Virus record (IMG/VR): IMGVR_UViG_3300021255_000128
Coordinates: 1 to 64,000 of that record
Direction: 5' to 3' (one strand)
Source of the DNA: a virus
Taxonomy: Duplodnaviria > Heunggongvirae > Uroviricota > Caudoviricetes
DNA: 64,000 bases
Shown: positions 2,522 through 44,604 of the stretch, piece after piece
Layout: every line of letters starts with the position of its first letter
Numbering within the stretch: position 1 is the first letter of the stretch
The notes under the pieces: generated by a model
The model's input: the letters and a program-made list of their open reading frames with translations, nothing else
Databases searched by the model: none
What the model was told of the DNA's origin: nothing
Translations under genes and position numbers: made by a program

Positions 2522-3299
2522 ATAACTATATTTATATATATTTATAAAGATTTATAAAGATTTAACTCAAACTATATTTATGCGCGAGGCGCAAAATTAA
2601 AAATCCAATATACTCAAAACATTTAAAACACAACTAACAATGAGCAAGAAATCTGCTTGGAAACAGTTTTGCCAAGACTGTGCAAATCATTTTGACAGAA
2701 AAACCCTTATAATGGGGTTACCACAATCCTCCAATCCATTTAAGATGAAGAAACACGCTAAAACTACTGGGAATTCTCCCAGTCCGAACAAGTTTTAGTA
2801 TTAACCTATATAATTATACGCGCGCGTAAGAAACAATTCTAGTATATGAAAACACGTTTTATTAACATTCAGCGGTGGGAAACCATCGTCACCGAAGAAG
2901 GTAAAGAGAAAAAGCAGAAAATTAATCTGCGAGTCAGAATTAATAATGCCATTCCGTTCTCACATTTTATGTGTGAAGGAAATAGAAGGGGCTAGGTTCT
3001 AAAATTTTTGGGTTGATTGGTAGAACGAGGGAGAGCGGAGTCTCCCATTCCCTCGGGATTCCTACAGTCGGTATTCAATGTTGAAATCTCGCTACAAAAC
3101 GCGGATACATTGTTTAGCTGTATTCTATCCAATCAATCCAAAAATAATCATTCTATAATCCATTTAAGAGTGAATTTATCATTTATATTCCCCATTTTTC
3201 CAGTATTTTTAAAATACTTCATAGTTCTCTCTTTATTTGGATATCTTATACAATTATATACAAAAGACATATTACTATAAGTTTAACATTTAAAAAATT

Positions 3300-16260: not shown

Positions 16261-16375
16261 TGGGCAGTCGTCTAATGGTTAGGACACGTAAGTTTAGTAA
16301 TGATTCATTACTTACAATCTCGTTAACTGTTATCCTGTGGAGATCGTGATTTAGGTTCGAATCCTAGCTGCCCGA
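16261..16375 (+). ncRNA. tRNA-like gene with oversized central region (~115 nt)
   Basis: Good acceptor (TGGGCAG/CTGCCCG), D arm (GTCT-AATGGTTA-GGAC) and T arm (TTAGG-TTCGAAT-CCTAG). Between them lie two 5-bp stems, each enclosing 18 nt (GTAAG..CTTAC and ATCTC..GAGAT), instead of a 7-nt anticodon loop. Confidence 0.4.
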
Positions 16376-16623: not shown

Positions 16624-17340
16624 ATGGAAGACATATTAATATGTCCTGATGTTCATTGTCGTAACTTCTATAAGCCTGTTTTAGAAATTAAAGATAAATA
16701 TATTATATTTCTTGGAGATTATCTTGATCCTTATCCTCAGGAAGGTTTTTCTTTTGAGAATGGATTAGCTAATCTTGAAGAGATTATTGATTTTAAAAAG
16801 CAAAGTCCTGATAGAGTTACATTGTTATTAGGAAATCACGATTTTAACGCATTATGGAAAATGAACTGGGCTTCTAGGCATAACTATAAGTTTCAGAACG
16901 ATTCTCATGTACTGTTTGAAGATAATTTAGATCTATTCGAACCCTATAAAGTCATAGGAAATATTTTATTTACTCATGCTGGAGTTTCTGAAGGATGGTA
17001 CAAAGAACATAATATTAGCAATATTATTGATTTCCTTGATAATCAGTGGAATTTATTCATTAATGGACCATTAGGTCCTTTTGAAGAATCATATCTTCCA
17101 ATTTTTGATTGTGGTCGTTCTAGAGGAGGATATGCTCCTTATGGAGGTATTTTCTGGCATGATGAATATGAATCGTATTGGACCAATCCAATAGATTATA
17201 CCCAGATCTATGGACATACGCAATTAGAAAGACCTGGAAAGATTGTAAACTATGTACAAGAAGGTAAACCAATGTATTGTTGTGATTCCAGAGCTATATT
17301 TGAATATAAAAATAATCAATTAACACGATATGAAAATTAA
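16624..17340 (+). CDS. calcineurin-like metallophosphoesterase
   Basis: PDVHC, GDYLD and GNHD motifs. Confidence 0.7.
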   Translation: MEDILICPDVHCRNFYKPVLEIKDKYIIFLGDYLDPYPQEGFSFENGLANLEEIIDFKKQSPDRVTLLLGNHDFNALWKMNWASRHNYKFQNDSHVLFEDNLDLFEPYKVIGNILFTHAGVSEGWYKEHNISNIIDFLDNQWNLFINGPLGPFEESYLPIFDCGRSRGGYAPYGGIFWHDEYESYWTNPIDYTQIYGHTQLERPGKIVNYVQEGKPMYCCDSRAIFEYKNNQLTRYEN

Positions 17341-17755
17341 TTTTACAAAAGAACACCTCGCTCAACTCAAGGCAAATATTGCTGAGTTAGTTCTTAATGG
17401 AACTATTATTACGGGTCCTTATGGACAGAATTATGATATTTTTAATATCGTAAATACGCTTTCTATTGCGTCTCTTCGTACAATTTCTGGATTTCTTCAG
17501 AAGAAGAAAGCAAGTCTTTCTGCTGATGACGAATGGGTAGAAAATCCTCATAAAGCAGAAGTTGAAGAACTCACGTTTATCACTGATACAATCTCTCTTG
17601 TTATAGGCTATAAGCTTAAGAATATTGAGATTGAAGACAATCGTCGTGAGAAAGCTCGTCTTGAGAAACAGCTTAATGAGCTTAAGGAATCTCAGAAGAG
17701 TCCTGCAGAACTCATTGCTGAACTCGAGGCAAAGATCACTGCAATTGATGCATAA
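17330..17755 (+). CDS. coiled-coil protein
   Basis: C-terminal heptad-like charged repeats. Confidence 0.45.
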   Translation: MKINFTKEHLAQLKANIAELVLNGTIITGPYGQNYDIFNIVNTLSIASLRTISGFLQKKKASLSADDEWVENPHKAEVEELTFITDTISLVIGYKLKNIEIEDNRREKARLEKQLNELKESQKSPAELIAELEAKITAIDA

Positions 17756-17785
17756 TATTTATTGTAGATACATTTAATGTAACTT

Positions 17786-19606
17786 ATGGTACAAGTAGAA
17801 TTTAATAAGAAGCAAGAAAATCCTTTCTATAAGCTTCAACATTGTCTTTCTATCTTCCAAGGAACTTCAATTACTGAAGGTTTACTTGATCGAGCCTGGC
17901 TTGAGGTTAGAGATGACAAAATAAAGAAAGAGATGTTTTATTCTCTTCTGTTTTCTATTGGAGATATTACCAATCGAGAGCATAATATCTTCCATAATAA
18001 GAAGATAGATTCTGGTGGTCAGGCAAGACGTTCAGAATTCTTTACTATTATGAATTGGATGATTAAAACAGATTACGAACAATTCAAGAAATTCCTTTTT
18101 GCAGGATTGTTTGATGAATATACTTGTTTTGATCATCTTTTCAAGAATAGAGTTCAAACCGCTCCAAAGACAAATCGAATAATTGCTGTTTATTCGATGC
18201 TTTCTAACGAGAAATATCGTCATGATCTTTCTGATTATGTGGTTAGCATTGTAAATGGCAAGAATCCATTTAAGAAGCAGCTTGTTGCAAAGTTTTTGAC
18301 GCTTCCTCGATTGGGCAAAAGAAGTAATCACAAGCAAATGATGGAGCCGACATTTAAGGCAATGAAGGATAAAGCATTGTTCTTAAAGGAAGTTTCTGAT
18401 AAGCTTGGATGGGAATATATCTTTACTAACAATTTCTGCAATTTTATTGGTTATCGTCACTGGAGAAAGGATTATAATTCTGATCTCGAGTCCGTTCTTT
18501 TCTCTACTGGAAAGATTAATGACTTTGATCAGGTAAGCTTTGTAGAATGGCTTGATAAACTTCCATCTCAGGCAAGATTCCGGGTTAAGAATCGTATATT
18601 CTATTCAAAGGATGCAAATGAAAACCTTAAGTGGAAGAAATTCCAGGATTGGTATACATCTTGGGAGAAATCTAAGGAATGTGCTCAAGCTGAACAGCGA
18701 GTTCTTCAGGAGAAGGTGAGACAGGGAATTGCTTCTATTGAAGATAAGGTCCGCCTAGAACAAGTAAAGAAAGAGGCAAAGGTTAATACTGGCGCTACTA
18801 ACTTTGATTCACTTTATCAGGAAATTCTTCGCGGAAATCCTGATAAATTGAAACTAGAAGCATTTGTTCAGAATAAGGTTAATCTTCCTTTCAATTTCTT
18901 AACTATTGTTGATGAGTCTGGTTCAATGCAGGGTGCACCATTCAATTTTGCAACATTCTTGGCTTCTGTACTTTTGTATAAGAATCCCGATGATATTGCG
19001 AGGAATTTGATTGGATTATTTGCTAATGAATCTAGATTTGTTTCAGCAATTGATAAAAGAGCATCAAGTATGCCTAATTCTTTCTGGACAAGAGCTACTG
19101 TAGCAGATATAGTTCCTGAACCATTTATTGTTCCAGAGATGAGTTTCTACGACAATTATCGGAGAATTTCAACATATCTCAGAACAATTTTTAGAAGTGG
19201 TGGAACTCATATTAATTCATTAGCTACAAGACTTAAAGAAATTTACTCAAGTAATCCTGAACTTATAGATGAACTTGCTAATTATCCTGTGTGGGTAATT
19301 TGTAGTGATGGAGACTTAAATAATAGTTTCTATGCTAGAGATTCAATTCTTGAACTTCAGCACGCTTGTAAGCAATACTTAGGTTTTGTTCCTTATCTTG
19401 TGATTATTGAGATTCAAAATTGGAATAACTATAATATCAATCATTTTGCAGATCTTGATCAGGTAATGTATATTCCTGGAAAGGTTGAACTGATTGAGCA
19501 AATGTTATCTAATTTTAGAGATATTGATGTCTTTGATGTCTATACTCCACTTCTCTCAATTTACCGAAGTAATAGATACGAATTAGTTAGAAATAATGTA
19601 ATTTAA
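17786..19606 (+). CDS. large vWA-domain protein
   Basis: MIDAS-like LTIVDESGSMQG. 606 aa. Confidence 0.55.
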   Translation: MVQVEFNKKQENPFYKLQHCLSIFQGTSITEGLLDRAWLEVRDDKIKKEMFYSLLFSIGDITNREHNIFHNKKIDSGGQARRSEFFTIMNWMIKTDYEQFKKFLFAGLFDEYTCFDHLFKNRVQTAPKTNRIIAVYSMLSNEKYRHDLSDYVVSIVNGKNPFKKQLVAKFLTLPRLGKRSNHKQMMEPTFKAMKDKALFLKEVSDKLGWEYIFTNNFCNFIGYRHWRKDYNSDLESVLFSTGKINDFDQVSFVEWLDKLPSQARFRVKNRIFYSKDANENLKWKKFQDWYTSWEKSKECAQAEQRVLQEKVRQGIASIEDKVRLEQVKKEAKVNTGATNFDSLYQEILRGNPDKLKLEAFVQNKVNLPFNFLTIVDESGSMQGAPFNFATFLASVLLYKNPDDIARNLIGLFANESRFVSAIDKRASSMPNSFWTRATVADIVPEPFIVPEMSFYDNYRRISTYLRTIFRSGGTHINSLATRLKEIYSSNPELIDELANYPVWVICSDGDLNNSFYARDSILELQHACKQYLGFVPYLVIIEIQNWNNYNINHFADLDQVMYIPGKVELIEQMLSNFRDIDVFDVYTPLLSIYRSNRYELVRNNVI

Positions 19607-19702
19607 TTTGCATTATTAAAAATTAATTTTTATCTTTGCAATCTTAATCCTCTGTTGTGTGATAATAGCAGAGGGTTCCATAAGACACTTACAACGTTTT
19701 AT

Positions 19703-19790
19703 AATTTTTTACACGAGTTCGAGTCTCGTATTGTTCACCATTTTTTCGAACGATTCGCCTAGTGGTTTTGGCAAAATTATAAGTGTCTTT
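19703..19790 (+). ncRNA. candidate permuted/split tRNA: 3' half (anticodon 3' strand, T arm, acceptor 3' strand, CCA) upstream of 5' half (acceptor 5' strand, D arm, anticodon 5' strand)
   Basis: 3' half: AATTT, ACGAG-TTCGAGT-CTCGT, ATTGTTC-A-CCA (19703-19740). After TTTTTT, the 5' half: GAACGAT-TC-GCC-TAGTGGTTTT-GGC-A-AAATT (19748-19778). The acceptor strands pair 7/7 (one G-U) and AAATT/AATTT pair 5/5. Confidence 0.4.
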
Positions 19791-19919
19791 TTATTTTTGA
19801 TTTAAGCCCTACTATTCCCTGGTTAATGTAAAAGATTATTCTTCACAAGCGCGCAGTCTAAGATTAATCATTTTAATCAAAGTAGTAGGTAGAAATATAA
19901 TATGTCACATACAATACTA

Positions 19920-19992
19920 ACTGTTTTAGCTCATTAGGTAGAGCGTCCGACTTATAATCAGAATGCAGTTGGTTCGATTCCAACAAACACTT
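19920..19992 (+). tRNA. tRNA-like, anticodon TAT (Ile-AUA type), imperfect
   Basis: D GCTC/GAGC and T GTTGG-TTCGATT-CCAAC are good. There is one C-C mismatch in the acceptor stem and one C-A in the anticodon stem. Loop is CTTATAA. Confidence 0.4.
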
Positions 19993-20318
19993 ATTTTGTG
20001 ACATAGACTTATAAAGGAGGGTGAGGGAGTGGCAAATCCCATCTATTGTAATGGGTCAGAAGTTGATCGCGGGTGACCGAATAATAAAGGATTAACGCCA
20101 TTGAACGATAGGAAAGTAGGTATGTAGCTACGATATAAAATGAATCCTACACTCACGGACTTCCGGGTTTCTTAAAGTCTTTCCTCCGGCTGATGAAATA
20201 AGACTTTTTAAGACCTTTCTTCCATTTTATATAAAATGTAACTTACAACTGTAAAACGTTCGCTGAATCGTATATCAGCTCCATGAAATTAGTATTACTT
20301 TTAAGTTACATTTAAAAT

Positions 20319-20577: not shown

Positions 20578-20791
20578 ATTATGATACTTATAATACTATA
20601 TTAAAACAATAATCTTTTAAATTATGTAGTTGAAACAAGTATCATTGAAACTTAATATTTTAATGTGAAACAAAGTATCTAAAGACGTTTAGAGAAACGA
20701 AGTAACCGGGTTTGGCTACAACCACACTGGAAGAAACCAAAAAGCACAGTGTTTAAAGAGGTACCTGGGAACAGAAACCCTCTTTATTTAT

Positions 20792-21749: not shown

Positions 21750-22335
21750 TATCTTTGGGCCTGACTAGAATTGAACGATATGAGATTGATAGAATAACAT
21801 GTACGAGCTGAACAACTCGTTTATCAACTATTCAAACAAATAAATTCCAAAAATCTTATTTCCGAAATTCGTAACAAGGTTATGGATTTCTGCAATAGTA
21901 TTGTAAATTTCTTTGCTCCTGAAGCAAGTTTTGCAATAGCTATCGCCTAGTTTCTTAATTCTATAAAAATTAAGTGGTGGAGATGGGGTGTCAAACTCCG
22001 TTAAATAATGCTGGGAACTCGCTAAACTGCTACCAGGGAAGATGAATGATGAGAATAGCCTTTTTTGCTGAGTATATTTATACTATCGTTTTACAAGGAA
22101 TGTTAAAACCAGCTAAACATGTAAATAATTATTCTATTGATACGTAGACGTGACTGAAGTGCGAATCTTCACAGGTCCACTATATTGGGATGTCGTATAA
22201 AGGTAATTACGATTGGCTGTTAACCAATTTATCACAGTTCAAGTCTGTGCGTCCCAGCAAATATGGAGGTATAGCAAAGATGGTCTATGCGGTGGACTGA
22301 AAATAAAAAGATTTTATTTATCGATTAATTAAAAA
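21750..22335 (+). ncRNA. possible group-I-like structured RNA upstream of an HNH gene
   Basis: GTCCAC / GTGGAC potential P7 (ACAGGTCCACTATA ... AAGATGGTCTATGCGGTGGAC). Weak. Confidence 0.25.
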
Positions 22336-25799: not shown

Positions 25800-25937
25800 C
25801 AGTAAATGCACAATTTTTGGCGCTTTACCAGAGAAATCTAAGGTAGAAGACGTTTTAAACGGGTAGGCTAACCGTCCTGCGAGGGTCGAAATTGTATTAA
25901 ATTTAAAGTTAATGATACTTACAATGCTATAAAACAA

Positions 25938-26008
25938 TATAAATTCGTCTAGTGGTTGGACACAATTTTTGGGTAATTGCAACATAGGTTCGATTCCTAT
26001 ATTTATTA
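25938..26008 (+). tRNA. second tRNA-like with anticodon TGG; weak all-AT acceptor stem
   Basis: D GTC-TAGTGGTTG-GAC, anticodon stem CAATT/AATTG with loop TTTGGGT, T ATAGG-TTCGATT-CCTAT. Mismatch at acceptor pair 1-72. Confidence 0.35.
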
Positions 26009-26025
26009 GTTAAGTATCATATAAT

Positions 26026-28625: not shown

Positions 28626-29345
28626 ATGGAACTAAAATATTTGAATTACGATACTACGTATTCTGTAAATGTAAACGGACGCCAATACAATTTTAACCAC
28701 GAAGCGTGTTTTAGTGATGTATTCAAAAGAATAACTATTACATGTAATGATTTGTGTGTTTATACAATTTGGATAAACCGTTCAGAAGAATATGTAAGAA
28801 GTAGTAACCATGATAATTATTGTTTTCTTACTCCAGAAGAACTTCGTAATCATATTAAAATAGTAAAAAGGCTTTTTGATTTTAAGTATTCTATTAAAGC
28901 TTTTGAAGATCATTATGAAGTAACGATAACAATACAAGGTCCAAAAATACGACATAAATATCTACTTACTTGGATTAGATATACGTACGAATGTCCAATG
29001 AATGTAATGTTTGTTGATATAAATCTACTTAAAAAGGAAAAATTATTTAAGTTTACATCTAAGGCAAACTTATTCTTATTACTTTCTTATGCAAGTGGAA
29101 GTTGGCACCATTATAGAGACATTCATTGTATACCAGAAGGTAATTCTGGTAGATTTTTAACCAATGACGAATTGGCAAATCGTCTTTTCAAGAAGATTTG
29201 TTTAAATGACATTTATACTGGTTCATATAATTTTAGATTTAATGTTCCTGCAGTCTATGACACGGATATAAACAAAATTATTAATACTTATCCAGAACGT
29301 CGTAGTATTTACATAGATAAATATTTAAAATATATAAAGAAATGA
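28626..29345 (+). CDS. hypothetical protein
   Basis: Start refined to the ATG at 28626. TGA stop overlaps the next start (ATGA). Confidence 0.5.
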   Translation: MELKYLNYDTTYSVNVNGRQYNFNHEACFSDVFKRITITCNDLCVYTIWINRSEEYVRSSNHDNYCFLTPEELRNHIKIVKRLFDFKYSIKAFEDHYEVTITIQGPKIRHKYLLTWIRYTYECPMNVMFVDINLLKKEKLFKFTSKANLFLLLSYASGSWHHYRDIHCIPEGNSGRFLTNDELANRLFKKICLNDIYTGSYNFRFNVPAVYDTDINKIINTYPERRSIYIDKYLKYIKK

Positions 29346-29956
29346 AAGTTTATGTAGTTGGTCCTGCAACACACTATACAAACTTTATGTCGAATGTAGA
29401 ATTAACAGACGATATAAAAAAGGCAAAAGTAATTCTTTTTACAGGTGGAGAAGATGTAGATCCATCTATCTACGGTAAAAGAAAACATCCAGAAACGCAT
29501 AGTAATCTTAAACGAGATCTTAAAGAAAAAGAAATCTTTGAAAAGATTCGTCCTGATCAACTAGCTGTGGGAGTCTGCCGTGGATCTCAGCTTCTCTGTG
29601 CTTTAAATGGTGGAAATCTTGTTCAGGATTGTAGTGGACACGCACTATATACAACACACCCTATCTATAGTTTTGAAGGAGACATGGTCTATGAAATAAC
29701 GTCTACACATCATCAGATGCAATATCCTTTTGATTTACCTAATAATGAATATCAAATTTTGTATTATGGTGTAGATGGAAGAGATTTTCGAGGTGATGGT
29801 ATTGACAGTAGATATTTAAATGGATGTAATCCCGAAATTGTTTTATACAAAAGACCTGGATTACCTAAATGTCTTGCAATTCAAGGACATCCTGAAATGA
29901 TTCCAAATAGTCCTGTTGCAAAAATGTTAGATAAATTAATCAAATCATTATGTTAA
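29342..29956 (+). CDS. class-I glutamine amidotransferase-like / peptidase C26 (gamma-glutamyl hydrolase-like)
   Basis: Nucleophile elbow GVCRGSQLL and C-terminal QGHPE (His-Glu) motif typical of GATase1/C26. Confidence 0.65.
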   Translation: MKVYVVGPATHYTNFMSNVELTDDIKKAKVILFTGGEDVDPSIYGKRKHPETHSNLKRDLKEKEIFEKIRPDQLAVGVCRGSQLLCALNGGNLVQDCSGHALYTTHPIYSFEGDMVYEITSTHHQMQYPFDLPNNEYQILYYGVDGRDFRGDGIDSRYLNGCNPEIVLYKRPGLPKCLAIQGHPEMIPNSPVAKMLDKLIKSLC

Positions 29957-30741
29957 TTACAGATTTTACAATTGGAGCTGATCCAGAATTATTTATTGTT
30001 AATTCTAAAACTGGAAAGGTTGTATCATCAATTGGATTGATTCCTGGTGTTAAGGGAGATCCTTATGTTGATGAATGTATGCCTAGAGGATTTGGCCTTG
30101 AAACAGATAATATTCTTGCAGAATTTAACATCCCTGTTTGTAAGACTAAAGAAGAATTTGTCAATAGTATAGAGTGGATGAAGAATTATATTCGTAGTTT
30201 CATTCAAGCTAAAGATCCAGATCTTGATATTAAATGTTCTGCAAGTGAAATAGTTGATGATGATCAACTTCAGAGTGATGAGGCAAAACTTTTTGGATGT
30301 TCTATAGATTATAATGTTTATACAGAGTCTGCAAATCCTAAACCGAAGGGCGAAACAACTAATCTTAGAAGTGCAGGAATGCATATTCATTGTGGGTATG
30401 ATGGATATAATACGAATACATCATTAGAGTTAATTAGGTTATTTGATTTGTTTATTGGAGTCCCTTCTGTACTTTTTGATGAAGATAAACGAAGAAGAGA
30501 TCTTTATGGAAAAGCTGGAGCATTTAGACTTACACCATATGGGTTTGAATATCGAGTACTTTCTAGTTACATGATGTCTTCTGTAGAACTTCTGGAGAAA
30601 GTATGGGCTCAAATTATTCATGCACTATATGCATTTAATCATGGAATTAGATGTAGAGATACTAATTCTGTAATTAATGCAATAAATAATAGTGATAAAA
30701 AATTAGCAAAATTACTTTGCACAAAATATAATCTTTTATAA
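29950..30741 (+). CDS. putative amidoligase-like protein (GS/GCS2-like fold)
   Basis: IGADPELF, GLETDN..AEFNIP, AGMHIHCG and GFEYRV motifs parallel those of the 32003 gene. Confidence 0.4.
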   Translation: MLITDFTIGADPELFIVNSKTGKVVSSIGLIPGVKGDPYVDECMPRGFGLETDNILAEFNIPVCKTKEEFVNSIEWMKNYIRSFIQAKDPDLDIKCSASEIVDDDQLQSDEAKLFGCSIDYNVYTESANPKPKGETTNLRSAGMHIHCGYDGYNTNTSLELIRLFDLFIGVPSVLFDEDKRRRDLYGKAGAFRLTPYGFEYRVLSSYMMSSVELLEKVWAQIIHALYAFNHGIRCRDTNSVINAINNSDKKLAKLLCTKYNLL

Positions 30742-30743
30742 AA

Positions 30744-32015
30744 ATGTGTGGAATATTTGGTATTGTTAGAGAACATCCTGCACAATTTGATTATTCTACG
30801 TTTTGCACACTAGGTATTGCCAACGATTCAAGAGGTGGTGATTCATGTGGTGTATTTATTGATGGAAGTGTTGAGTATGGTATAAAAGATGAGAAGTTAT
30901 TTCAAGACTTTTTTACAAAGAGTGTAGTTTTACAAAATACACATTATTCAACAATTGCATTAGGCCATTGTAGAAAAGCTTCGATCGGAGCAATTAATAT
31001 GAGCACCGCTCAACCAGTTGTAATACAAAATGAAAATAATGAAACTGAATTTGTAGTTCTTCATAATGGAACTATTCATAACTATCAAGATCTTGCTGAA
31101 AAGTATATTCCTGATGTAGACATTAAAGGAATGACTGATAGTCAAGTAATGGCTAGGATCTTCTATTATAAAGGTTATGATGTTCTTGAAGAATATACAG
31201 GTGGTGCTGTATTTTTCATTGTAGATTATCGTGAAGATAAGCCGAGAATAATGTTCTTTAAAGGTGCTTCTAAGAAATACATTAGTGATTTGGAGCTTAC
31301 TGAAGAACGTCCATTATACTTCTGTATTACAGATGATGAAATGGTGTTTTCATCAATTCCCTCATACTTATTAGCACTTCGACCTGATGCAATTTTGTAT
31401 ACTCCTGCAGAAAATGTTCTTGGCGAATTCAAAAACGGAAAACCTGTTGCTATTAAAAAGTATGATCGTAGTGACTGTTTACAACAGAAACTAGGAGGTT
31501 ATTATAATACAACACCTGTAGCAAAATATATGGATTATTTGATGTATAATGCTAATGGATGTTTTCATACAGTTTCCTTCAAAAGAATTAGTGGTGAATA
31601 CTTTATATCAAGTTGGGGTGGTGTATATGAAGGTAAACCTGGTTATTTAGCAACTGAAAAGTTATATCTATTTAACGGTATTCCATTTTTTGATAAGAAA
31701 TATTATGATTTTGTATGTAAATATTTCAGGAAGTCAAATAAAGATATAGATGAATTTACAAAAGACAATGAATACTTAATTAGATATTTAAGTGTTTATC
31801 GTTTATATGTAAAGGATGGAGTTTTATATCTTTTAAAGGAACCTGATATATTAGAACCGTATACGGGTGATTTATCTCCTATTGGGGGTACCAGAACAAG
31901 AAAATATAAAAACGGAACATTTGTTTGTGAGATATATGAACCATATCATCACCCAACAAATAATAGCGTTACAGAAGTAAACTTAAAAGCACTTAAAAAC
32001 TTATGGAAGCTATAA
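30744..32015 (+). CDS. class-II (Ntn) glutamine amidotransferase domain protein with unknown C-terminal domain
   Basis: N-terminal MCGIFG with catalytic Cys2 and a GAT-II-like core. No PP-loop SGGxDS seen, so not asparagine-synthase or QueC-like. Confidence 0.65.
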   Translation: MCGIFGIVREHPAQFDYSTFCTLGIANDSRGGDSCGVFIDGSVEYGIKDEKLFQDFFTKSVVLQNTHYSTIALGHCRKASIGAINMSTAQPVVIQNENNETEFVVLHNGTIHNYQDLAEKYIPDVDIKGMTDSQVMARIFYYKGYDVLEEYTGGAVFFIVDYREDKPRIMFFKGASKKYISDLELTEERPLYFCITDDEMVFSSIPSYLLALRPDAILYTPAENVLGEFKNGKPVAIKKYDRSDCLQQKLGGYYNTTPVAKYMDYLMYNANGCFHTVSFKRISGEYFISSWGGVYEGKPGYLATEKLYLFNGIPFFDKKYYDFVCKYFRKSNKDIDEFTKDNEYLIRYLSVYRLYVKDGVLYLLKEPDILEPYTGDLSPIGGTRTRKYKNGTFVCEIYEPYHHPTNNSVTEVNLKALKNLWKL

Positions 32016-33232
32016 ACGAGTTTACTGGATTAAAAATCTCTAGTCGAATTGTTCGATTTGTAACAGACATTGTAGAAAATATTCTAATTTATGGATATAC
32101 AAATTCATCTAAAGATTTAAGTGAGGGGTTGTTTATCATGGCTGATGGAAACTCTGTCACATCATATTATGATCCTAATCACTTACACTTAGATTGGAGT
32201 CCATATTTTCAGAAGTATTACTGTCTTTTATATGATTGTAAAGATAATCCCAGTTTCTTAATTGATGTATCTAAGTCATTAAAACCTGGAGTATACAGTT
32301 ATTCCTTTGAACGAAAATACGAAGCTGTTCAAAACTTTAAATTGTTTGATAATAAACAATTGAAGATTGAATCGGAAGAATTTCCTATCGCAAAGCATGT
32401 TAAACGTACAATTGGAATAGAATTTGAAACATCTTTGGGATATATTTCAGAAAGAGACTGTTTTAATTATGGATTAATTCCATTAAGAGATGGTTCTATT
32501 TCAGGAATTGAATATTCAACTGTTATATTACAAGGAAACTCCGGATTTAATCTTTTAAAGAAACAGTTAGATTTACTTCGAAATTATACTCATTTTAATA
32601 AAGAGTGCTCACTTCATATTCATTTTGGTAATTTCCCTCTTGATGTAACCAAGATATCTCGACTTTACTCAATATTGTTGAGAATTCAAGACCAGATGGA
32701 ATGGTATGTTCCAGCATTAACATTCCGTACAAATGAATATAAAGCAAATGGAAAATCTTATTGTAAGAAATTGCCTGAATTTGCTAGCTTTGATCAAATG
32801 TTTTATAATTTTACAAGTATGGCATTTTTCGGGAGTTTTGTACAACCACATCCAGATGATTTAACTAGAACTCATAAGTGGAATGTTCACTCTCGTTATT
32901 ATTGGTGTAATTTTGTAAATCTTCTGTGCTACAATGTTAATAAGACAGTAGAGTTTAGATTTTTACGTCCAACTTATAATCTTGAGAAGATATTGACTTG
33001 GATTTATATTCTTAATGGTATTTTAACTTATGCGGAAGGTAACGGTAAAATACAGGGTATTGATTTAAAATATATCTTGAATTCTGTTTATCCTACTGAT
33101 ACTGCAAACATACTACATTATGAATGTACAAAGTTAGTATCTCTTCAGAAAGCTCAATATGATAATGGCGATTTGATTGGTGCAGATCTTACGTTAGAGA
33201 ATAGATTTTTTGAATCTAATAAAATTATTTAA
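32003..33232 (+). CDS. putative amidoligase (Amidoligase_2/GCS2-like)
   Basis: TIGIEFET, RDGSISGIEYST, ECSLHIHFG and TVEFRFL motifs resemble glutamine-synthetase-like COOH-NH2 ligases. Confidence 0.5.
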   Translation: MEAINEFTGLKISSRIVRFVTDIVENILIYGYTNSSKDLSEGLFIMADGNSVTSYYDPNHLHLDWSPYFQKYYCLLYDCKDNPSFLIDVSKSLKPGVYSYSFERKYEAVQNFKLFDNKQLKIESEEFPIAKHVKRTIGIEFETSLGYISERDCFNYGLIPLRDGSISGIEYSTVILQGNSGFNLLKKQLDLLRNYTHFNKECSLHIHFGNFPLDVTKISRLYSILLRIQDQMEWYVPALTFRTNEYKANGKSYCKKLPEFASFDQMFYNFTSMAFFGSFVQPHPDDLTRTHKWNVHSRYYWCNFVNLLCYNVNKTVEFRFLRPTYNLEKILTWIYILNGILTYAEGNGKIQGIDLKYILNSVYPTDTANILHYECTKLVSLQKAQYDNGDLIGADLTLENRFFESNKII

Positions 33233-38318: not shown

Positions 38319-38759
38319 TCTCCTAACAATATAAGGCACTTACAATACAAAATTGCTATTGATTCGATCAATTACTTAATATTTAACAACTCTATGCTGG
38401 TCATAGCGTGCGACACGCGTTAGTTTCCGTATCTAAAATACGTTATTTAAGTGGCTTGTAAGTGAAAAGTAACTTTCAGTGCCTTTTTAGATTTATTTTA
38501 ACAATATTTTTAAATCAAATGCCTAAGGTATCTGATTATGAACTTGAACATTTATCTGATAATGAATCTAATTTTCAGAAAGTTCGTAGTAAAAAACCTA
38601 AATCTTTAAAAGAACCAAAATACCCGGATAAAAAGAAAAATCGGGAAAAGAAAATTGACTTTTGAGATTTAGAAGAAAAAGAGTTTTAAAAGTTAATGAT
38701 ACATACAAATAAAAATCATTTATATTGCATTAATATTACTTGATTTGTATCATAAATAT

Positions 38760-40407: not shown

Positions 40408-40464
40408 ATTTGGAAAATTAAAATATTTTTCGTAACTTTGTTTTATGATACTTATAATCCTAAT

Positions 40465-40544
40465 TAATTGTTGGTTCGAATCCAACTTCTGCTTTATCTT
40501 AGCTGAATGGCGAAATTGGTTTACGCGAATGACTTGAAATCATT
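40465..40544 (+). ncRNA. second candidate permuted/split tRNA (T arm plus acceptor 3' strand, then acceptor 5' strand, D arm and anticodon arm with loop CTTGAAA)
   Basis: GTTGG-TTCGAAT-CCAAC-TTCTGCT-T (40470-40494), a 6-nt spacer, then AGCTGAA-TG-GCG-AAATTGGTTTA-CGC-G-AATGA-CTTGAAA-TCATT. The acceptor strands pair 6/7. No T arm follows the 5' half and no 5' half precedes the 3' half. Confidence 0.35.
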
Positions 40545-40620
40545 TTTTATTAATAAGTATCATTTAAAAATAACTGTTTGTCTCAACAGTAAAATGAGAT
40601 GTTAGCATTCATAGTGTTCC

Positions 40621-41580: not shown

Positions 41581-41657
41581 CGTCTTGTCGTCCAATGGAA
41601 TTAGGACAGCTGTCTTCAAAATAGCCAATCAGGGTTTGAGTCCTTGCAAGACGACCA
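41581..41657 (+). tRNA. opal suppressor tRNA (anticodon TCA, reads UGA); Trp-like; CCA encoded
   Basis: Acceptor CGTCTTG/CAAGACG-A-CCA, D GTCC-AATGGAATTA-GGAC, anticodon stem GCTGT/ATAGC (one G-U) with loop CTTCAAA, T CAGGG-TTTGAGT-CCTTG. Confidence 0.75.
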
Positions 41658-42141: not shown

Positions 42142-42316
42142 TATGGAAATTTTATTTATTTATTCGATTCCTTGTATCATAAGTTTTTTACTTATGAATC
42201 AATGTTATAAGAAAAAATTGTTAGATTATCCAATGCTTTCTGCATTAAGTTGTATTATTCCTTTTGTAAATTGGATTGGATTAATATGTTTTATATGTAA
42301 ATTAATAAATGGTTAA
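42110..42316 (+). CDS. small membrane protein
   Basis: Hydrophobic. Confidence 0.4.
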   Translation: MIFYILELKFNMEILFIYSIPCIISFLLMNQCYKKKLLDYPMLSALSCIIPFVNWIGLICFICKLING

Positions 42317-43895
42317 TGAATTAAAGTTTGGGAAATATGCGAAAGATTCTCTTCTAGCAGGAATGTCAAAAATTGCTGAAGCAGTTGGATCAACTCTTGG
42401 TCCAAAAGGAAAATGTGTAATTCTCGATAATTATTCTAACGGTCTTCCACATGTGACTAAAGATGGAGTCACAGTTGCAAAAAATATTTTTCTTGAAAAT
42501 AAATTTGAAAATGTTGGTGCAACTTTACTAAAACAAGCTGCATTAAATACCGTACGCTCTGTTGGTGATGCAACTACATCTTCAACAGTTTTAGCATATA
42601 AGATGGTAGCTAATGCATACCCAATGCTTGAAGGACACAATTTGTCGTTAATTAAAAAAGGTATATCTAAAGCAGCAACCCACGTTCAAGAAACTATTCA
42701 AAATTCTTCAATGCCTGTTAATTGGGAGGAATTAGAAAAAATTGCAACAATTTCTGCAAATAATGATATAGAAATAGGAAAAATTGTAGCAGATGCTTTT
42801 AATAAAGTTGGATTGGATGGTGTAATTACGGTTGAAGAATCTCCAAACAATAAAACAACAATTGATATTATTAATGGTATGCAATTTGATCGAGGGTTTG
42901 AATCACACTGGTTTATTACAGATAAATCTAAGGGCGAATGTGTTCTTGAAAATCCATTAATTCTTATAACTGATCAAAAAGTACAATTAACTAGAGAAAT
43001 TCTTCCTGCTGCAGAATATTGTGCAAAAAATGGCAGAGCCATGTTAATTATTGCACAAGATTTCGATGATGAAGTTGTTCAAAATCTTCGAATAAATCAT
43101 CTTCAAGGAAATATTAAATGTTGTCTTGTAAAAGCACCATCGTTTGGAGATTATAGAAAATATGTTTTAGATGATTTAGCATTACTTACAAATGCAAAAT
43201 TAGCTACATATGACAATGGAATCGAACTACAAAAAGTAGACGGTTCTATGCTTGGATCTTGTGGTAAAGTAGTAATTACTAAAGATTCTACTACAATTTT
43301 AAACGGTGCTGGTGATGCAAAACTTATAGCAGAACGAGTTTCAGAAATTAAAACTCTTTTATCAACACTTCAATCTGGAGAAGAAGTTTTACAAAAATTT
43401 CATAAAGAACGTATTGCTCGTTTAGTTGGTGGAATTTGTTCAATTAAAGTTGGAGCTACTTCTGAACTTGAAATGAAAGAAAAGAAAGATAGAGTTGATG
43501 ATGCTGTTTGTGCAACAAGAGCTGCTTGTGAAGAAGGTATTGTTCCTGGTGGAGGAATTACATTTATGAAGGCATTTTTAACTATGCCTACAAGTGATGT
43601 TCGTGATGAACAGATTGGAATAGATATTATTAAAAACGCATTAACATCTGTATTTGATAAGATTGTTGATAACGCAGGTTACAATCCAAGAGAAATTGGA
43701 CAACAAGTATATCCTGAAGATAATATATCTTGGAATGCTGATACAGAAAAATATGAAAACTTCCTTGATGCTGGAATAATTAATCCTGCTAAGGCTGACA
43801 GACTTGCATTTGAAAATGCAATAGGTGTACTAAATATGTTTATTTCTACTAATTGTATAATTACAGAAAAAGATGTGTTTGCAGAAATTAAATAA
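42309..43895 (+). CDS. groEL-like: GroEL-like chaperonin (Cpn60 family)
   Basis: N-terminus aligns motif-for-motif with GroEL (KFG..A..LL.G...AEAVGSTLGPKG..V.LD......P.VTKDGVTVAK.I.LE.KFEN.GA.LLK). Length 528 aa. Confidence 0.85.
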   Translation: MVNELKFGKYAKDSLLAGMSKIAEAVGSTLGPKGKCVILDNYSNGLPHVTKDGVTVAKNIFLENKFENVGATLLKQAALNTVRSVGDATTSSTVLAYKMVANAYPMLEGHNLSLIKKGISKAATHVQETIQNSSMPVNWEELEKIATISANNDIEIGKIVADAFNKVGLDGVITVEESPNNKTTIDIINGMQFDRGFESHWFITDKSKGECVLENPLILITDQKVQLTREILPAAEYCAKNGRAMLIIAQDFDDEVVQNLRINHLQGNIKCCLVKAPSFGDYRKYVLDDLALLTNAKLATYDNGIELQKVDGSMLGSCGKVVITKDSTTILNGAGDAKLIAERVSEIKTLLSTLQSGEEVLQKFHKERIARLVGGICSIKVGATSELEMKEKKDRVDDAVCATRAACEEGIVPGGGITFMKAFLTMPTSDVRDEQIGIDIIKNALTSVFDKIVDNAGYNPREIGQQVYPEDNISWNADTEKYENFLDAGIINPAKADRLAFENAIGVLNMFISTNCIITEKDVFAEIK

Positions 43896-44604
43896 ATACG
43901 ATGTTTATGCAACATCGGATTTACATGGAATTCTACCAAAAATAGATACTCCTTTTGATTTATTACTTCTTGCAGGAGATTTAGTGAATCTTTATATGCA
44001 AAGAGATATGGGAGATACTATAGAATGGTATGAAGGTCCATTTGTAAATTGGATTAATACTCTTCCATTTAAAGATGAAAGCGGTAAAGTTCTTTGGATT
44101 GCGGGAAATCATGAAGTTGGTTGGGAAAAACTTGTTCCAGAAGGAAGAAGAAAAATTGCAAACCATATGACAGAATTAACTAATGGTAGAGCAATTTATC
44201 TTGAAGACGATTTATACGATTTTAATGGTATAAAAGTGTATGGAACACCATGGTGTAAAATCTTTGGAAATTGGGCATTTATGAAAAATGAGGACGGTTT
44301 AAAAGAAGTTTATTCTCAAATTCCAGAGGATGTAGATATTCTTTTAACACATGATGCTCCATACGGAACTTCAGATTTATGTTTTGAATGGATAGCTTGG
44401 GGAAAAACTCCATATCACATAGGTAATAAACCACTAAGAGATATAATTATTGAAAAATGTCCTGATTTTAATTTACATGGACATCTTCATTCAGCAAATC
44501 ATGCTGAAGAAGTACTTAATAATACTAAAGTTTTTAACGTTAGTTTAGTTGATGAAGCTTATAAGGAGGCATATTCTCCTTTATATCTAGAAATAATAAA
44601 ATAA
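43873..44604 (+). CDS. calcineurin-like metallophosphoesterase
   Basis: SDLHG, AGDLV, GNHE and GHLH motifs. Confidence 0.7.
   Translation: MCLQKLNKYDVYATSDLHGILPKIDTPFDLLLLAGDLVNLYMQRDMGDTIEWYEGPFVNWINTLPFKDESGKVLWIAGNHEVGWEKLVPEGRRKIANHMTELTNGRAIYLEDDLYDFNGIKVYGTPWCKIFGNWAFMKNEDGLKEVYSQIPEDVDILLTHDAPYGTSDLCFEWIAWGKTPYHIGNKPLRDIIIEKCPDFNLHGHLHSANHAEEVLNNTKVFNVSLVDEAYKEAYSPLYLEIIK

What the first reader, a model, noticed from the sequence alone, without database searches (positions are those of the whole stretch)
19703..19790. Candidate permuted tRNA gene: 3' half (with CCA) lies directly upstream of the matching 5' half
The segment ACGAG-TTCGAGT-CTCGT / ATTGTTC-A-CCA is a T arm plus acceptor 3' strand. 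Six bases later come GAACGAT-TC-GCC-TAGTGGTTTT-GGC-A-AAATT, an acceptor 5' strand, D arm and anticodon 5' strand. The acceptor strands are complementary 7/7 with one G-U. AAATT pairs 5/5 with AATTT located just upstream of the T arm. Chance complementarity of 12 bp in this arrangement is unlikely. Permuted tRNA genes are known only in a few algae and archaea. In a phage this could instead mark a rearrangement or integration scar.
Basis: seen in the sequence. Interest (0 to 1): 0.7.

Follow-up and report, generated by a model that had tools for sequence, protein, structure and literature searches.

The report
Phage Y-RNA-like permuted tRNA mimic
The segment is a real, conserved small RNA gene folded like a tRNA whose two halves are swapped, but it has no anticodon. 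It belongs to a large, previously undescribed set of tRNA look-alikes that sit next to a Ro60-like RNA-binding protein gene in a group of large phages.

Summary
Window 19703-19790 contains a T arm, a 7-bp acceptor helix closed by a loop that starts ACCA, a D arm and a 5-bp anticodon-type stem, in permuted order.

Relatives keep the fold, with compensatory changes in 16 of 22 pairs. It is therefore neither chance nor a scar.

It is not a decoding tRNA gene. It has no anticodon loop, and ARAGORN does not call the un-permuted sequence.

The topology is that of bacterial and phage YrlA Y RNAs. The Rfam YrlA model hits sibling modules in relatives at 27-45 bits, about the score of a known mycobacteriophage YrlA, but it does not hit this copy.

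The terminal helix is a conserved handle, 5'-NGNYACUUA-CAA...UAAGURNCN-3'. It occurs about 250 times near homologues of the 606-aa gene that ends 76 nt upstream. That protein has a helical domain plus a vWA/MIDAS domain, hits phrog_850 (the phage Ro60 family), and has Ro60 and Rsr as its best full-length fold matches.

The handle frames permuted tRNAs, normal-order tRNA-likes, plain hairpins and the protein's own 5' UTR.

Best reading: a divergent Ro60-type RNP with tRNA-mimic RNAs. Protein binding and RNase P processing are inferred, not shown.

The parts
19682..19789 (+). The whole RNA unit, a permuted tRNA-like domain closed by a terminal helix. Proposed structure: ((((((((((...........(((((.....(((((.......)))))(((((((...........)))))))..(((..........))).))))).))))))))))
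   Evidence: Sequence. Energy and helix probabilities. Consensus fold with covariation in relatives.
19682..19691 (+). Handle 5' strand AAGACACUUA. Family consensus is NGNYACUUA.
   Evidence: 205 distinct modules share it. Three outer pairs covary among AU, UA, CG and GC. Counts are 257 on the gene strand and 28 on the other strand.
19692..19702 (+). Internal-loop strand CAACGUUUUAU. It begins with the near-invariant unpaired CAA of the handle motif.
   Evidence: In the column counts, C or U then A then A follow the 5' arm in 201-205 of 205 modules.
19703..19707 (+). 3' strand of the anticodon-type stem (AAUUU).
   Evidence: It pairs with 19774-19778. The pairs covary in relatives, for example AAUCUU/AAGAUU and UAUUUU/AAAAUA.
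19708..19712 (+). Variable loop UUUAC. C19712 is placed to form the Levitt pair with G15 (G19762).
   Evidence: Read from the sequence. tRNA numbering comes from established tRNA knowledge.
19713..19729 (+). T arm: ACGAG, UUCGAGU, CUCGU, with a canonical T54-Psi55-C56-R57-A58 loop.
19730..19740 (+). Acceptor 3' strand AUUGUUC, discriminator A, and an encoded CCA.
   Evidence: The five closest orthologues carry ACCA or GCCA here. The window's ordinary tRNA genes do not encode CCA.
19741..19747 (+). U-rich closing loop UUUUUUC. It would be the 5' leader of an RNase P site before G19748.
   Evidence: Sequence. Cleavage is inferred by analogy with M. smegmatis YrlA (PMC4201824).
19748..19754 (+). 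Acceptor 5' strand GAACGAU.
   Evidence: Pairs 7/7 with 19730-19736. Acceptor helices covary across the family.
19755..19773 (+). U8-C9, the D arm (GCC, UAGUGGUUUU, GGC) with A14 and G18-G19, then A26.
19774..19778 (+). 5' strand of the anticodon-type stem (AAAUU).
19780..19789 (+). Handle 3' strand UAAGUGUCUU.
17786..19606 (+). Gene for a 606-aa protein with a helical N-terminal domain and a vWA domain carrying the MIDAS motif DESGS (residues 376-380). It is the proposed Ro60-like partner of the handle RNAs.
19607..19638 (+). Promoter-like TTTG, 20 nt, TATCTTTG (Bacteroidota-type -33/-7 consensus) just after the stop codon.
   Evidence: Sequence. The same TTTG...TAnnTTTG follows the gene in relatives. 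The consensus comes from my own knowledge and the assignment is an inference.
19649..19674 (+). G+C-rich hairpin CCUCUG...CAGAGG between the promoter and the first module.
   Evidence: Analogous hairpins of different sequence sit at the same place in relatives.
19903..20003 (+). Sibling module. The handle UGUCACAUA...UGUGACA frames a normal-order tRNA-like RNA with anticodon UAU.
20237..20310 (+). Sibling module. The handle UGUAACUUA...UAAGUUACA frames a non-tRNA hairpin cargo.
   Evidence: Conserved in L077 and L081.
20582..20644 (+). Sibling module with an A/U-rich cargo.
   Evidence: Conserved in L001.
25913..26019 (+). Sibling module framing a tRNA-Pro(UGG)-like RNA.
38334..38456 (+). Sibling module with a complex cargo.
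38697..38752 (+). Sibling module with a short cargo.
40446..40562 (+). Sibling module, a complete permuted tRNA. The break and the handle lie in the variable region and the acceptor is closed by UUAUCUU. Un-permuted, it is called tRNA-Ser(UGA).

Best explanation
The element encodes a small non-coding RNA of about 108 nt of the Y-RNA-like (YrlA-type) kind, a tRNA mimic in circularly permuted order.

Its T and D arms can form the tRNA elbow. U8-A14, G15-C48, G18/G19 with Psi55/C56, and G53-C61 are all available. The acceptor helix is a closed 7-bp hairpin whose loop begins ACCA. Where a tRNA has its anticodon loop, the stem continues into a conserved terminal helix, the handle, made by the 5' and 3' ends.

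It is transcribed from a promoter directly after the upstream gene. It is one of at least eight handle-bearing modules in this window.

Inferred steps:
- The handle (helix ACUUA/UAAGU plus unpaired CAA) is the binding site of the adjacent 606-aa Ro60-like protein.
- The tRNA-shaped domain engages a tRNA-binding factor.
- Because the acceptor helix has the full 7 bp and an encoded NCCA, RNase P probably opens the loop before G19748. That would give a two-piece RNA with a free CCA end, as shown for Mycobacterium smegmatis YrlA.

Shown: the fold, its conservation and covariation, the handle family, and its tight genomic linkage to the protein family.

Not shown: expression, protein binding, processing and biological role.
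For: Structure:
- The RNAalifold consensus has compensatory changes in 16 of 22 pairs.
- The unbiased stem test is and ensemble probabilities are.

Topology:
- Order V, T, acceptor stem-loop, D between a 5'/3' stem is exactly what is described for YrlA (PMC4201824).

Rfam YrlA (RF02553):
- It hits sibling and orthologous-position modules in relatives with full-length alignments: L039 at 45.3 bits (E 7e-7), L082 4938-5040 at 35.5 bits, L002 4921-5032 at 35.4 bits, and L010 and L035.
- The known YrlA next to mycobacteriophage Bxz1 Ro60 scores 32.5 bits in the same library.

Protein:
- phrog_850 is hit by 12 of 15 family members, and that family holds Bxz1 gp220, which has TROVE plus vWA_Ro60.
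- The MIDAS motif DESGS is present.

Linkage:
- There are 6.18 modules per 10 kb on the gene strand around homologues. The opposite strand has 0.43 and unrelated viral loci have 0.05-0.23.
- Modules peak in the gene's own 5' UTR and in the first kb downstream.
- Distant homologues still carry a CACUUA/UAAGUG helix joined to a tRNA body next to the gene (P0209 at E 7.5e-39 and P0218 at E 8.9e-30).

CCA: it is kept in the five closest orthologues, while ordinary tRNA genes of the window lack an encoded CCA.
Against: - The window copy itself gets no YrlA hit, even in a 127-nt search.
- All YrlA hits in relatives are below Rfam's gathering score of 69.
- The YrlA and Ro motif GNCGAAN0-1G is absent. 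The handle motif is different.
- The protein has no Pfam TROVE or vWA_Ro60 hit.
- hhalign against Bxz1 gp220 aligns only the vWA part, at 1.4% probability.
- One orthologue (L081) lacks CCA.
- There are no expression, binding or processing data.
Confidence: 0.6

Rival explanations
1. The handle is a protein-independent or host-factor-dependent RNA element. It could be an end-pairing clamp or processing signal that stabilises or releases small RNAs. In this reading the tRNA-shaped cargos act on their own, for example as decoys for host tRNA-targeting nucleases or modification enzymes. The 606-aa protein would be linked only by gene neighbourhood.
For: - The handle frames very different cargos, including plain hairpins and ordinary-looking tRNAs.
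- Modules also lie up to 20 kb from the gene in the window.
- Evidence that the protein is a Ro60 homologue is incomplete.
- Anticodon triplets differ among near-identical bodies, which suits decoys.
Against: - A handle hairpin encloses or precedes the start codon of the protein gene in most relatives. The position of its 3' arm shifts, which points to selection for a handle on this mRNA.
- Modules are strongly concentrated at the gene.
- The pairing of helix and tRNA body with the protein family persists down to E 1e-30 homologues.
Confidence: 0.22
2. It is a true permuted tRNA gene. The precursor is circularised or held together and then opened at the acceptor end to give a tRNA that works in translation, as in Cyanidioschyzon merolae and some archaea.
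For: - The order is permuted, the acceptor helix is a perfect 7 bp, and ACCA is encoded.
- Many sibling modules un-permute into complete tRNAs with canonical Y-U-NNN-R-N loops. Two-piece functional tRNAs among the siblings cannot be excluded.
Against: - This element has no 7-nt anticodon loop, and the internal loop is not conserved as one in orthologues.
- ARAGORN does not call the un-permuted sequence, even with introns allowed.
- There is no bulge-helix-bulge motif at the junction.
- No bacterial splicing endonuclease is known (stated in 10.1101/312249).
- Normal-order handle modules have acceptor helices of only about 4 bp, so the class as a whole is not built for charging.
Confidence: 0.04
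3. It is a DNA-level feature: a rearrangement or integration scar in a tRNA gene, or a miniature inverted-repeat element.
For: 10-bp inverted repeats flank the unit. Phages often integrate in tRNA genes.
Against: - The same architecture with compensatory changes in four internal helices occurs in many contigs.
- Modules show strong strand bias, 257 against 28.
- G-U outnumbers A-C and C-A, 40 to 19, in handle pairs.
- The CAA motif is always on the 5' side.
Confidence: 0.02
4. It is a two-piece (permuted) tmRNA gene.
For: T arm, acceptor 3' strand and CCA lie upstream of the acceptor 5' strand, as in permuted ssrA. A sibling module in L001 gives a weak tmRNA_permuted hit (29.6 bits, E 0.036).
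Against: - ARAGORN reports no tmRNA here.
- The unit is closed after 108 nt by the handle.
- There is no tag reading frame and there are no pseudoknots.
- A full D arm is present.
- A separate tmRNA-like gene lies at 21757-22182.
Confidence: 0.01

Closest known systems
YrlA-type bacterial and phage Y RNAs with Ro60/Rsr (Chen et al. 2014, PMC4201824; Wang et al. 2018, 10.1101/312249; Thermus phage phiLo Ro60, PMC12135203)
   Same: - A terminal stem is made by the 5' and 3' ends.
- The tRNA-like domain has the order V, T arm, closed acceptor stem-loop, D arm, with no anticodon loop.
- It is encoded on the same strand within a few hundred nt of a protein with a helical domain plus vWA/MIDAS.
- Several different Y-like RNAs occur per genome.
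- A 7-bp acceptor helix, as in M. smegmatis YrlA, which RNase P cuts and which then receives CCA.
- The Rfam YrlA model recognises sibling modules at the same score level as a known phage YrlA.
   Different: - The handle motif is NGNYACUUA-CAA, not GNCGAAN0-1G.
- This copy is not hit by the YrlA model.
- The protein fails Pfam TROVE and vWA_Ro60 and is linked to Ro60 only through phrog_850 and full-length fold matches.
- CCA is genomically encoded inside the loop.
- There are at least 8 modules in this window and several per related locus (about 250 in 56 loci).
- The handle is attached at different points of the tRNA body: the anticodon end, the variable region, the D/anticodon junction, or the acceptor end.
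- A handle sits on the protein's own mRNA.
Circularly permuted tRNA genes of Cyanidioschyzon merolae, other algae and Thermofilum (Soma 2007; Maruyama 2010; Chan 2011, as cited in 10.1101/312249)
   Same: The 3' half lies upstream of the 5' half. The acceptor end is closed by an intervening sequence. The termini pair with each other.
   Different: Those genes mature through a bulge-helix-bulge splice and ligation into ordinary decoding tRNAs. Here there is no anticodon loop, no BHB motif and no known bacterial endonuclease. The terminal helix is a conserved family-wide motif.
Two-piece tmRNA (permuted ssrA)
   Same: T arm, acceptor 3' strand and CCA come before the acceptor 5' strand. The product is probably two base-paired pieces after processing.
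   Different: There is no tag ORF and there are no pseudoknots. A full D arm is present. The unit is only 108 nt.
Phage-encoded tRNAs that counter host anticodon nucleases (from my own knowledge, not tested here)
   Same: The modules cluster with a phage tRNA array. Sibling modules differ mainly in the anticodon loop.
   Different: Those are chargeable, contiguous tRNAs. These are permuted or have truncated acceptor helices and carry a protein-type handle.

Membership tests
YrlA / bacterial Y RNA | tRNA-like domain in the order V, T arm, acceptor stem-loop, D arm, enclosed by a stem formed from the 5' and 3' ends. | tested here: met
   compared with the description in PMC4201824 and with the RF02553 consensus structure shown.
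YrlA / bacterial Y RNA | Conserved Ro-binding motif GNCGAAN0-1G near the 5' end. | tested here: not met
   No such motif lies in 19682-19702. The family-wide conserved 5' motif is ACUUA-CAA.
YrlA / bacterial Y RNA | Match to the Rfam covariance model RF02553. | tested here: not met
   The window copy has no hit at E up to 10 in 127 nt and none at E up to 1 in 14000-44000. Sibling modules in relatives hit at 27-45 bits, E down to 7e-7, all below the gathering score of 69. The known Bxz1 YrlA scores 32.5 bits.
YrlA / bacterial Y RNA | Encoded within about 4 kb of a Ro60 orthologue on the same strand. | tested here: inconclusive
   The element starts 76 nt after the stop codon of the 606-aa gene, on the same strand. 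Whether that protein is a Ro60 orthologue is only partly supported; see the Ro60 rows.
YrlA / bacterial Y RNA | Bound by Ro60/Rsr and carrying tRNA modifications (Psi55, D). | not testable with these tools
   This needs RIP, EMSA and modification mapping.
Ro60 / TROVE protein | Pfam TROVE (PF05731) and vWA_Ro60 (PF25045) domains. | tested here: not met
   The window protein has no Pfam family. Distant relatives give only weak generic VWA hits. The positive control Bxz1 gp220 hits both domains.
Ro60 / TROVE protein | Membership in the phage Ro60 profile family (phrog_850). | tested here: met
   The window protein scores E 1.3e-4. Twelve of 15 family members hit, best E 1.4e-7. Bxz1 gp220 scores E 2.8e-140 in the same family.
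Ro60 / TROVE protein | HEAT-repeat ring followed by a vWA domain with a MIDAS motif. | tested here: inconclusive
Permuted tRNA genes (algal / archaeal type) | The 3' half lies upstream of the 5' half, with complementary acceptor strands. | tested here: met
Permuted tRNA genes (algal / archaeal type) | The un-permuted sequence gives a canonical cloverleaf with a 7-nt anticodon loop. | tested here: not met
   ARAGORN makes no call for the un-permuted window element, with or without introns. Sibling 40446-40562 does pass, as tRNA-Ser(UGA).
Permuted tRNA genes (algal / archaeal type) | A bulge-helix-bulge motif at the junction of the termini. | tested here: not met
   The junction is a 10-bp helix next to an internal loop of 11 nt on one side and 1 nt on the other. 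There are no two 3-nt bulges separated by 4 bp.
Two-piece tmRNA | A tag reading frame, pseudoknots, and detection by ARAGORN or Rfam tmRNA models. | tested here: not met

The most novel reading that the evidence does not exclude
These phages carry a modular RNP system that has not been described. A divergent Ro60-like vWA protein recognises one short handle helix. That handle is grafted onto tRNA bodies at any of four positions, which creates circularly permuted, normal-order and anticodon-less tRNA mimics.

The anticodon triplets turn over rapidly between otherwise identical copies. One example set reads UUU, GUU, GAU, GUC and UCA in five relatives.

The system could work in either of two ways:
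- It presents a diversifying panel of tRNA decoys to host tRNA-targeting defence nucleases.
- Those members with 7-bp acceptor helices are cut by RNase P into functional two-piece tRNAs. These would be the first permuted or split tRNA genes in the bacterial or phage world.
Probability: 0.2. Interest if true: 0.85.

Novelty: new variant of a known kind. Interest (0 to 1): 0.66.

Why it matters
Ro60 with Y RNA is a conserved but poorly understood RNP, and the purpose of the tRNA-like domain of bacterial Y RNAs is still an open question.

This phage lineage offers a natural experiment:
- Hundreds of sequence-diverse modules share one short handle, with the tRNA body attached in several topologies.
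- The anticodon arms are variable.
- A copy of the handle sits on the partner protein's own mRNA.

That makes three things directly testable: which part of the RNA the protein reads, which part faces the cell, and whether tRNA mimicry serves as bait for tRNA-targeting enzymes.

It also shows that tRNA-gene finders miss a sizeable class of tRNA-shaped genes in phage genomes. ARAGORN called 9 of 62 in native order and 35-44 of 62 after un-permutation.

Tried and rejected
- **Rfam.** The gathering and E-value scans of the window found nothing for the element itself.
- **ARAGORN.** It finds no tRNA or tmRNA at the site.
- **BLAST against deposited phages.** blastn gave only tRNA matches. tblastn gave only a 59-residue vWA match to Fusobacterium phages.
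- **PDB sequence searches.** Single-sequence and profile queries returned nothing.
- **Representative-library profile search.** The protein family is small and closed, with 184 representatives and no bridge to TROVE.
- **hhalign against Bxz1 gp220.** Only the vWA region aligned, at 1.4% probability.
- **afdb50 library.** It was unavailable.
- **Pattern scan of viral contigs for more AGACAC-handle copies.** Most of the 27 matches were chance hits in coding DNA. One was new (L059) and four were loci already held.
- **Pattern scan of bacterial genomes.** It returned only tRNA fragments or att-like sites, mostly in Planctomycetota MAGs, and nothing related.
- **Locus L087, a distant homologue.** Its intergenic regions are masked with N.
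- **The mechanical ORF 19659-19805 (48 aa).** It was dismissed because conservation follows helices, not codons.
- **An anticodon-like reading of the internal loop.** GUUUUAU sits before AAUUU in the window, but it is not conserved in orthologues.
- **The handle as a sigma-70-type -10 box (TACAAT).** This was rejected. Bases upstream of it covary with the 3' arm, and a Bacteroidota-type promoter lies further upstream.

Full report
**1. Observation**

The + strand between 19682 and 19789 reads as follows:
AAGACACTTA | CAACGTTTTAT | AATTT | TTTAC | ACGAG-TTCGAGT-CTCGT | ATTGTTC | A-CCA-TTTTTTC | GAACGAT | TC | GCC-TAGTGGTTTT-GGC | A | AAATT | A | TAAGTGTCTT

Two points need correction. Seven bases, not six, separate CCA from the acceptor 5' strand.

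The nucleotides that build the tRNA elbow are all in place. These are U8, A14, G15 with C48, G18-G19, the T54-Psi55-C56-R57-A58 loop, and G53-C61.

ARAGORN and Rfam report nothing here.

RNAfold gives the handle and T arm with probability near 1. The acceptor, D and anticodon-type helices come out at 0.43-0.56. The full permuted cloverleaf is 3.5 kcal/mol above the MFE.

**2. The fold is conserved**

The 606-aa ORF that ends 76 nt upstream (17786-19606) has more than 1,200 homologues in metagenomes, many on contigs of 160-180 kb. I fetched 48 viral loci plus 8 more from ENA and Logan.

The closest relatives carry the same element downstream of the gene. The acceptor helices differ but stay complementary:
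- ATTGTTC/GAACGAT
- ATTACTC/GAGTGAT
- CTTTTCT/GGAAAAG
- TTTGACT/GGTCAAA
- CTAATCC/GGATTTG

The anticodon-type stems differ in the same way: AATTT/AAATT, AATCTT/AAGATT, TATTTT/AAAATA.

RNAalifold on 8 copies predicts the four internal helices without guidance. Sixteen of 22 pairs show compensatory changes.

This excludes chance and excludes a rearrangement or integration scar.

**3. The handle family**

The terminal helix is not private to this element. A scan for NNNN[AG]C[ACT]TA[CT]A[AC] followed within 30-320 nt by a 9-nt complement finds 257 modules on the gene strand and 28 on the other strand, in 420 kb.

The 205 distinct copies give this consensus: 5'-(A/U)G(A/U)(U/C)ACUUA-CAA(U/A)A ... 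(U)AAGU(A/G)(U/A)C(U/A)-3'. Three outer pairs covary among AU, UA, CG and GC. G-U outnumbers A-C and C-A, 40 to 19.

Module density is 6.18 per 10 kb on the gene strand near homologues. The opposite strand has 0.43 and unrelated viral loci have 0.05-0.23. Density peaks in the first kb downstream of the gene and in its 5' UTR.

In most relatives a handle 5' arm, (N)GTTACTTACAA, lies 20-35 nt before the ATG. Its complement AGTAAC lies inside codons 8-19, at shifting positions, or a complete handle hairpin precedes the ATG. In the window this feature is weak.

The window holds eight credible modules.

**4. What the handle frames**

- (a) Permuted tRNA-likes without an anticodon loop, with the handle at the anticodon end. 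The finding is one of these.
- (b) Complete permuted tRNAs with the break and the handle in the variable region. Window 40446-40562 is an example.
- (c) Permuted forms broken between the D arm and the anticodon arm.
- (d) Normal-order tRNA-likes whose acceptor helix is only about 4 bp.
- (e) Non-tRNA hairpins.

An unbiased test used 72 candidates chosen only by handle plus GTTCRA. The T stem pairs 5/5 in 68 (control 6). A 7/7 acceptor hairpin directly follows the T arm in 41 (control 4.1).

ARAGORN of 62 modules in native order. After computational un-permutation it of 62, or 44 of 62 with introns allowed. Calls start exactly at the inferred acceptor 5' strand. The finding and two of its four closest orthologues are not called, because they lack an anticodon loop.

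Among near-identical bodies the anticodon triplet differs. One set reads CUUUUAA, CUGUUAA, CUGAUAA, CUGUCAA and CUUCAAA in L013, L015, L019, L029 and L038. The Y-U-NNN-R-N loop pattern is kept throughout.

**5. The neighbouring protein**

Evidence linking it to Ro60:
- The sequence carries a MIDAS motif, DESGS, at residues 376-380.
- Distant relatives give weak VWA hits.
- Twelve of 15 family members hit phrog_850, best E 1.4e-7. The match spans the N-terminal two thirds.
- phrog_850 holds mycobacteriophage Bxz1 gp220, which has Pfam TROVE (9.4e-50) and vWA_Ro60 (4.3e-54). It also holds a DUF2828/DUF7788 protein of Fusobacterium phage Fnu1.
- Foldseek ranks 2nvo first and human Ro60 third, with full-length alignments.

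Evidence against:
- Pfam finds no domain.
- A model of residues 1-365 alone retrieves only generic alpha-solenoid proteins.
- hhalign to gp220 is uninformative.

I therefore call the protein Ro60-like, meaning a divergent member of the phage Ro60 profile family. I do not call it a demonstrated TROVE orthologue.

**6. Comparison with the known**

Chen et al. 2014 (PMC4201824) describe YrlA as a 5'/3' stem enclosing V, T, an acceptor stem-loop and D, encoded beside Ro60 in more than 250 bacteria and 22 phages. M. smegmatis YrlA has a 7-bp acceptor helix, is cut by RNase P, and acquires CCA.

Wang et al. [quoted passage not shown]

The Rfam library holds YrlA (RF02553). It scores the Bxz1 YrlA at 32.5 bits. 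It scores handle modules of my relatives at 27-45 bits with full-length alignments. One of these is the module directly downstream of the gene in L082, whose protein is 71% identical. All are below the gathering score, and the window copy is not hit.

The differences from YrlA are:
- a different handle motif, with no GNCGAA;
- a genomically encoded CCA, kept in the five closest orthologues and absent from L081, although the window's ordinary tRNA genes lack an encoded CCA;
- many modules per genome;
- several attachment topologies;
- a handle on the protein's own mRNA.

Two very distant homologues of the protein still have a CACUUA/UAAGUG helix joined to a tRNA body next to the gene. In L085 it is a permuted tRNA. 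In L086 it is a closed hairpin inside two normal-order tRNA-likes, which is the un-permuted equivalent of the finding.

**7. Mechanism**

Shown:
- a conserved, covarying, permuted tRNA-like fold with a family-wide handle;
- tight linkage to one protein family.

Inferred:
- transcription from a Bacteroidota-type TTTG-N20-TAnnTTTG promoter at 19607-19638;
- binding of the handle by the Ro60-like protein, with autoregulation through the 5' UTR handle in relatives;
- RNase P cleavage before G19748 and trimming to CCA, giving a two-piece RNA;
- engagement of a tRNA-binding partner by the tRNA-shaped domain.

The biological role is open. It could be RNA quality control or repair as proposed for Ro60, hijacking of a host nuclease as proposed for phage phiLo (PMC12135203), or decoying of tRNA-targeting defences.

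**8. Verdict**

The interpretation as a permuted tRNA gene is partly supported: the topology is right, but a decoding tRNA is not. The element is best filed as a new variant of the Y-RNA/Ro60 kind. A surrounding family of handle-tagged tRNA mimics appears undescribed; two literature searches found no report of permuted tRNA-like genes of this kind in phages.

Noticed in passing
L013 5473-5589, L015 5421-5531, L019 5370-5483, L029 5485-5593, L038 5527-5638; also normal-order modules listed: Near-identical permuted tRNA bodies, with the same handle, arms and anticodon stem ATACA/TGTAT, differ only in the anticodon triplet: UUU, GUU, GAU, GUC, UCA. The Y-U-NNN-R-N loop pattern is kept. The anticodon looks like the fastest-evolving part of these RNAs.
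   Followed up: partly
L005-L047 about 2965-3031 (gene start at 3001); window 17775-17830: In most relatives a handle 5' arm, (N)GTTACTTACAA, lies in the 5' UTR of the Ro60-like gene. It pairs with AGTAAC inside the first 8-19 codons, at shifting positions, so it encloses the ribosome-binding region and the ATG. In the window and L001 only the 5' arm is clear.
   Followed up: partly
L086 2454-3000: Two normal-order tRNA-like genes lie upstream of a very distant homologue of the protein (E 8.9e-30). Each carries a closed hairpin CTTAGTGAA-NN-TTCACTTAG in the anticodon region. This is the un-permuted equivalent of the finding. That gene is flanked by AAA-ATPase genes.
   Followed up: partly
window 21757-22182: A tmRNA-like sequence scores 33 bits on RF00023 with E 7e-10, below the gathering score of 47. 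ARAGORN does not call it. Relative L042 has a similar hit at 1752-2152.
   Followed up: no
window 16261-16375: An Rfam tRNA hit (33.9 bits) spans 115 nt and has an insertion of about 40 nt after the D arm that contains ACTTACAA and a 6-bp hairpin. ARAGORN does not call it.
   Followed up: partly
window 41581-41657: A tRNA has anticodon UCA (ARAGORN labels it SeC). It is a possible opal suppressor and hints at stop-codon recoding in this phage.
   Followed up: no
window 19801-19893: A block closed by CCCTACTAT...ATAGTAGG lies right after the element. It is nearly identical in L079 and recognisable in L081. It is probably another small structured RNA.
   Followed up: partly
window 20005-20236: An intergenic block of about 230 nt is conserved in L077 and L081. 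It has no Rfam hit at E up to 1, and its folding z-score is only -0.34. It begins with AAGGAGG plus GTG and could hold a 24-codon ORF.
   Followed up: partly
window 19649-19674 and the same position in relatives: A G+C-rich hairpin lies between the promoter-like site and the first module. Its sequence is not conserved, but loops often contain GAUA (GUGAUA, GAAAUA, UUGAUA).
   Followed up: no
window 16624-17755; L077-L084 about 1400-2990: Synteny upstream of the Ro60-like gene is conserved: a calcineurin-like metallophosphoesterase (238-247 aa), a 141-aa protein with no family hit, and sometimes a 116-155-aa protein. In L081 the phosphoesterase region carries a LAGLIDADG-type ORF. A second Metallophos gene lies at window 43873-44604.
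   Followed up: no
window 29342-33232 and 42309-43895: The window holds a cluster of glutamine amidotransferases, a phiEco32-like COOH-NH2 ligase and an amidoligase. A GroEL-type chaperonin gene lies further on.
   Followed up: no
L001 7405-7609; L001 4961-5010: A relative has a group I intron hit (51.9 bits). The T-arm and acceptor region of one of its handle modules gives a weak tmRNA_permuted hit (29.6 bits).
   Followed up: no
L092, L094, L096, L099, L101, L104, L108 (Planctomycetota MAGs): These are unrelated to the phage. Conserved sequence ...TTGACAAATACTTACAA precedes 3' halves of tRNA genes. It looks like the ends of integrated elements at tRNA att sites.
   Followed up: no
window 19687-19693: The invariant part of the handle, CUUACAA, has the form of a tRNA-Val(UAC) anticodon loop. 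The Rfam tRNA model aligns it that way in a truncated 17.7-bit hit. This may be coincidence or a vestige of origin.
   Followed up: no
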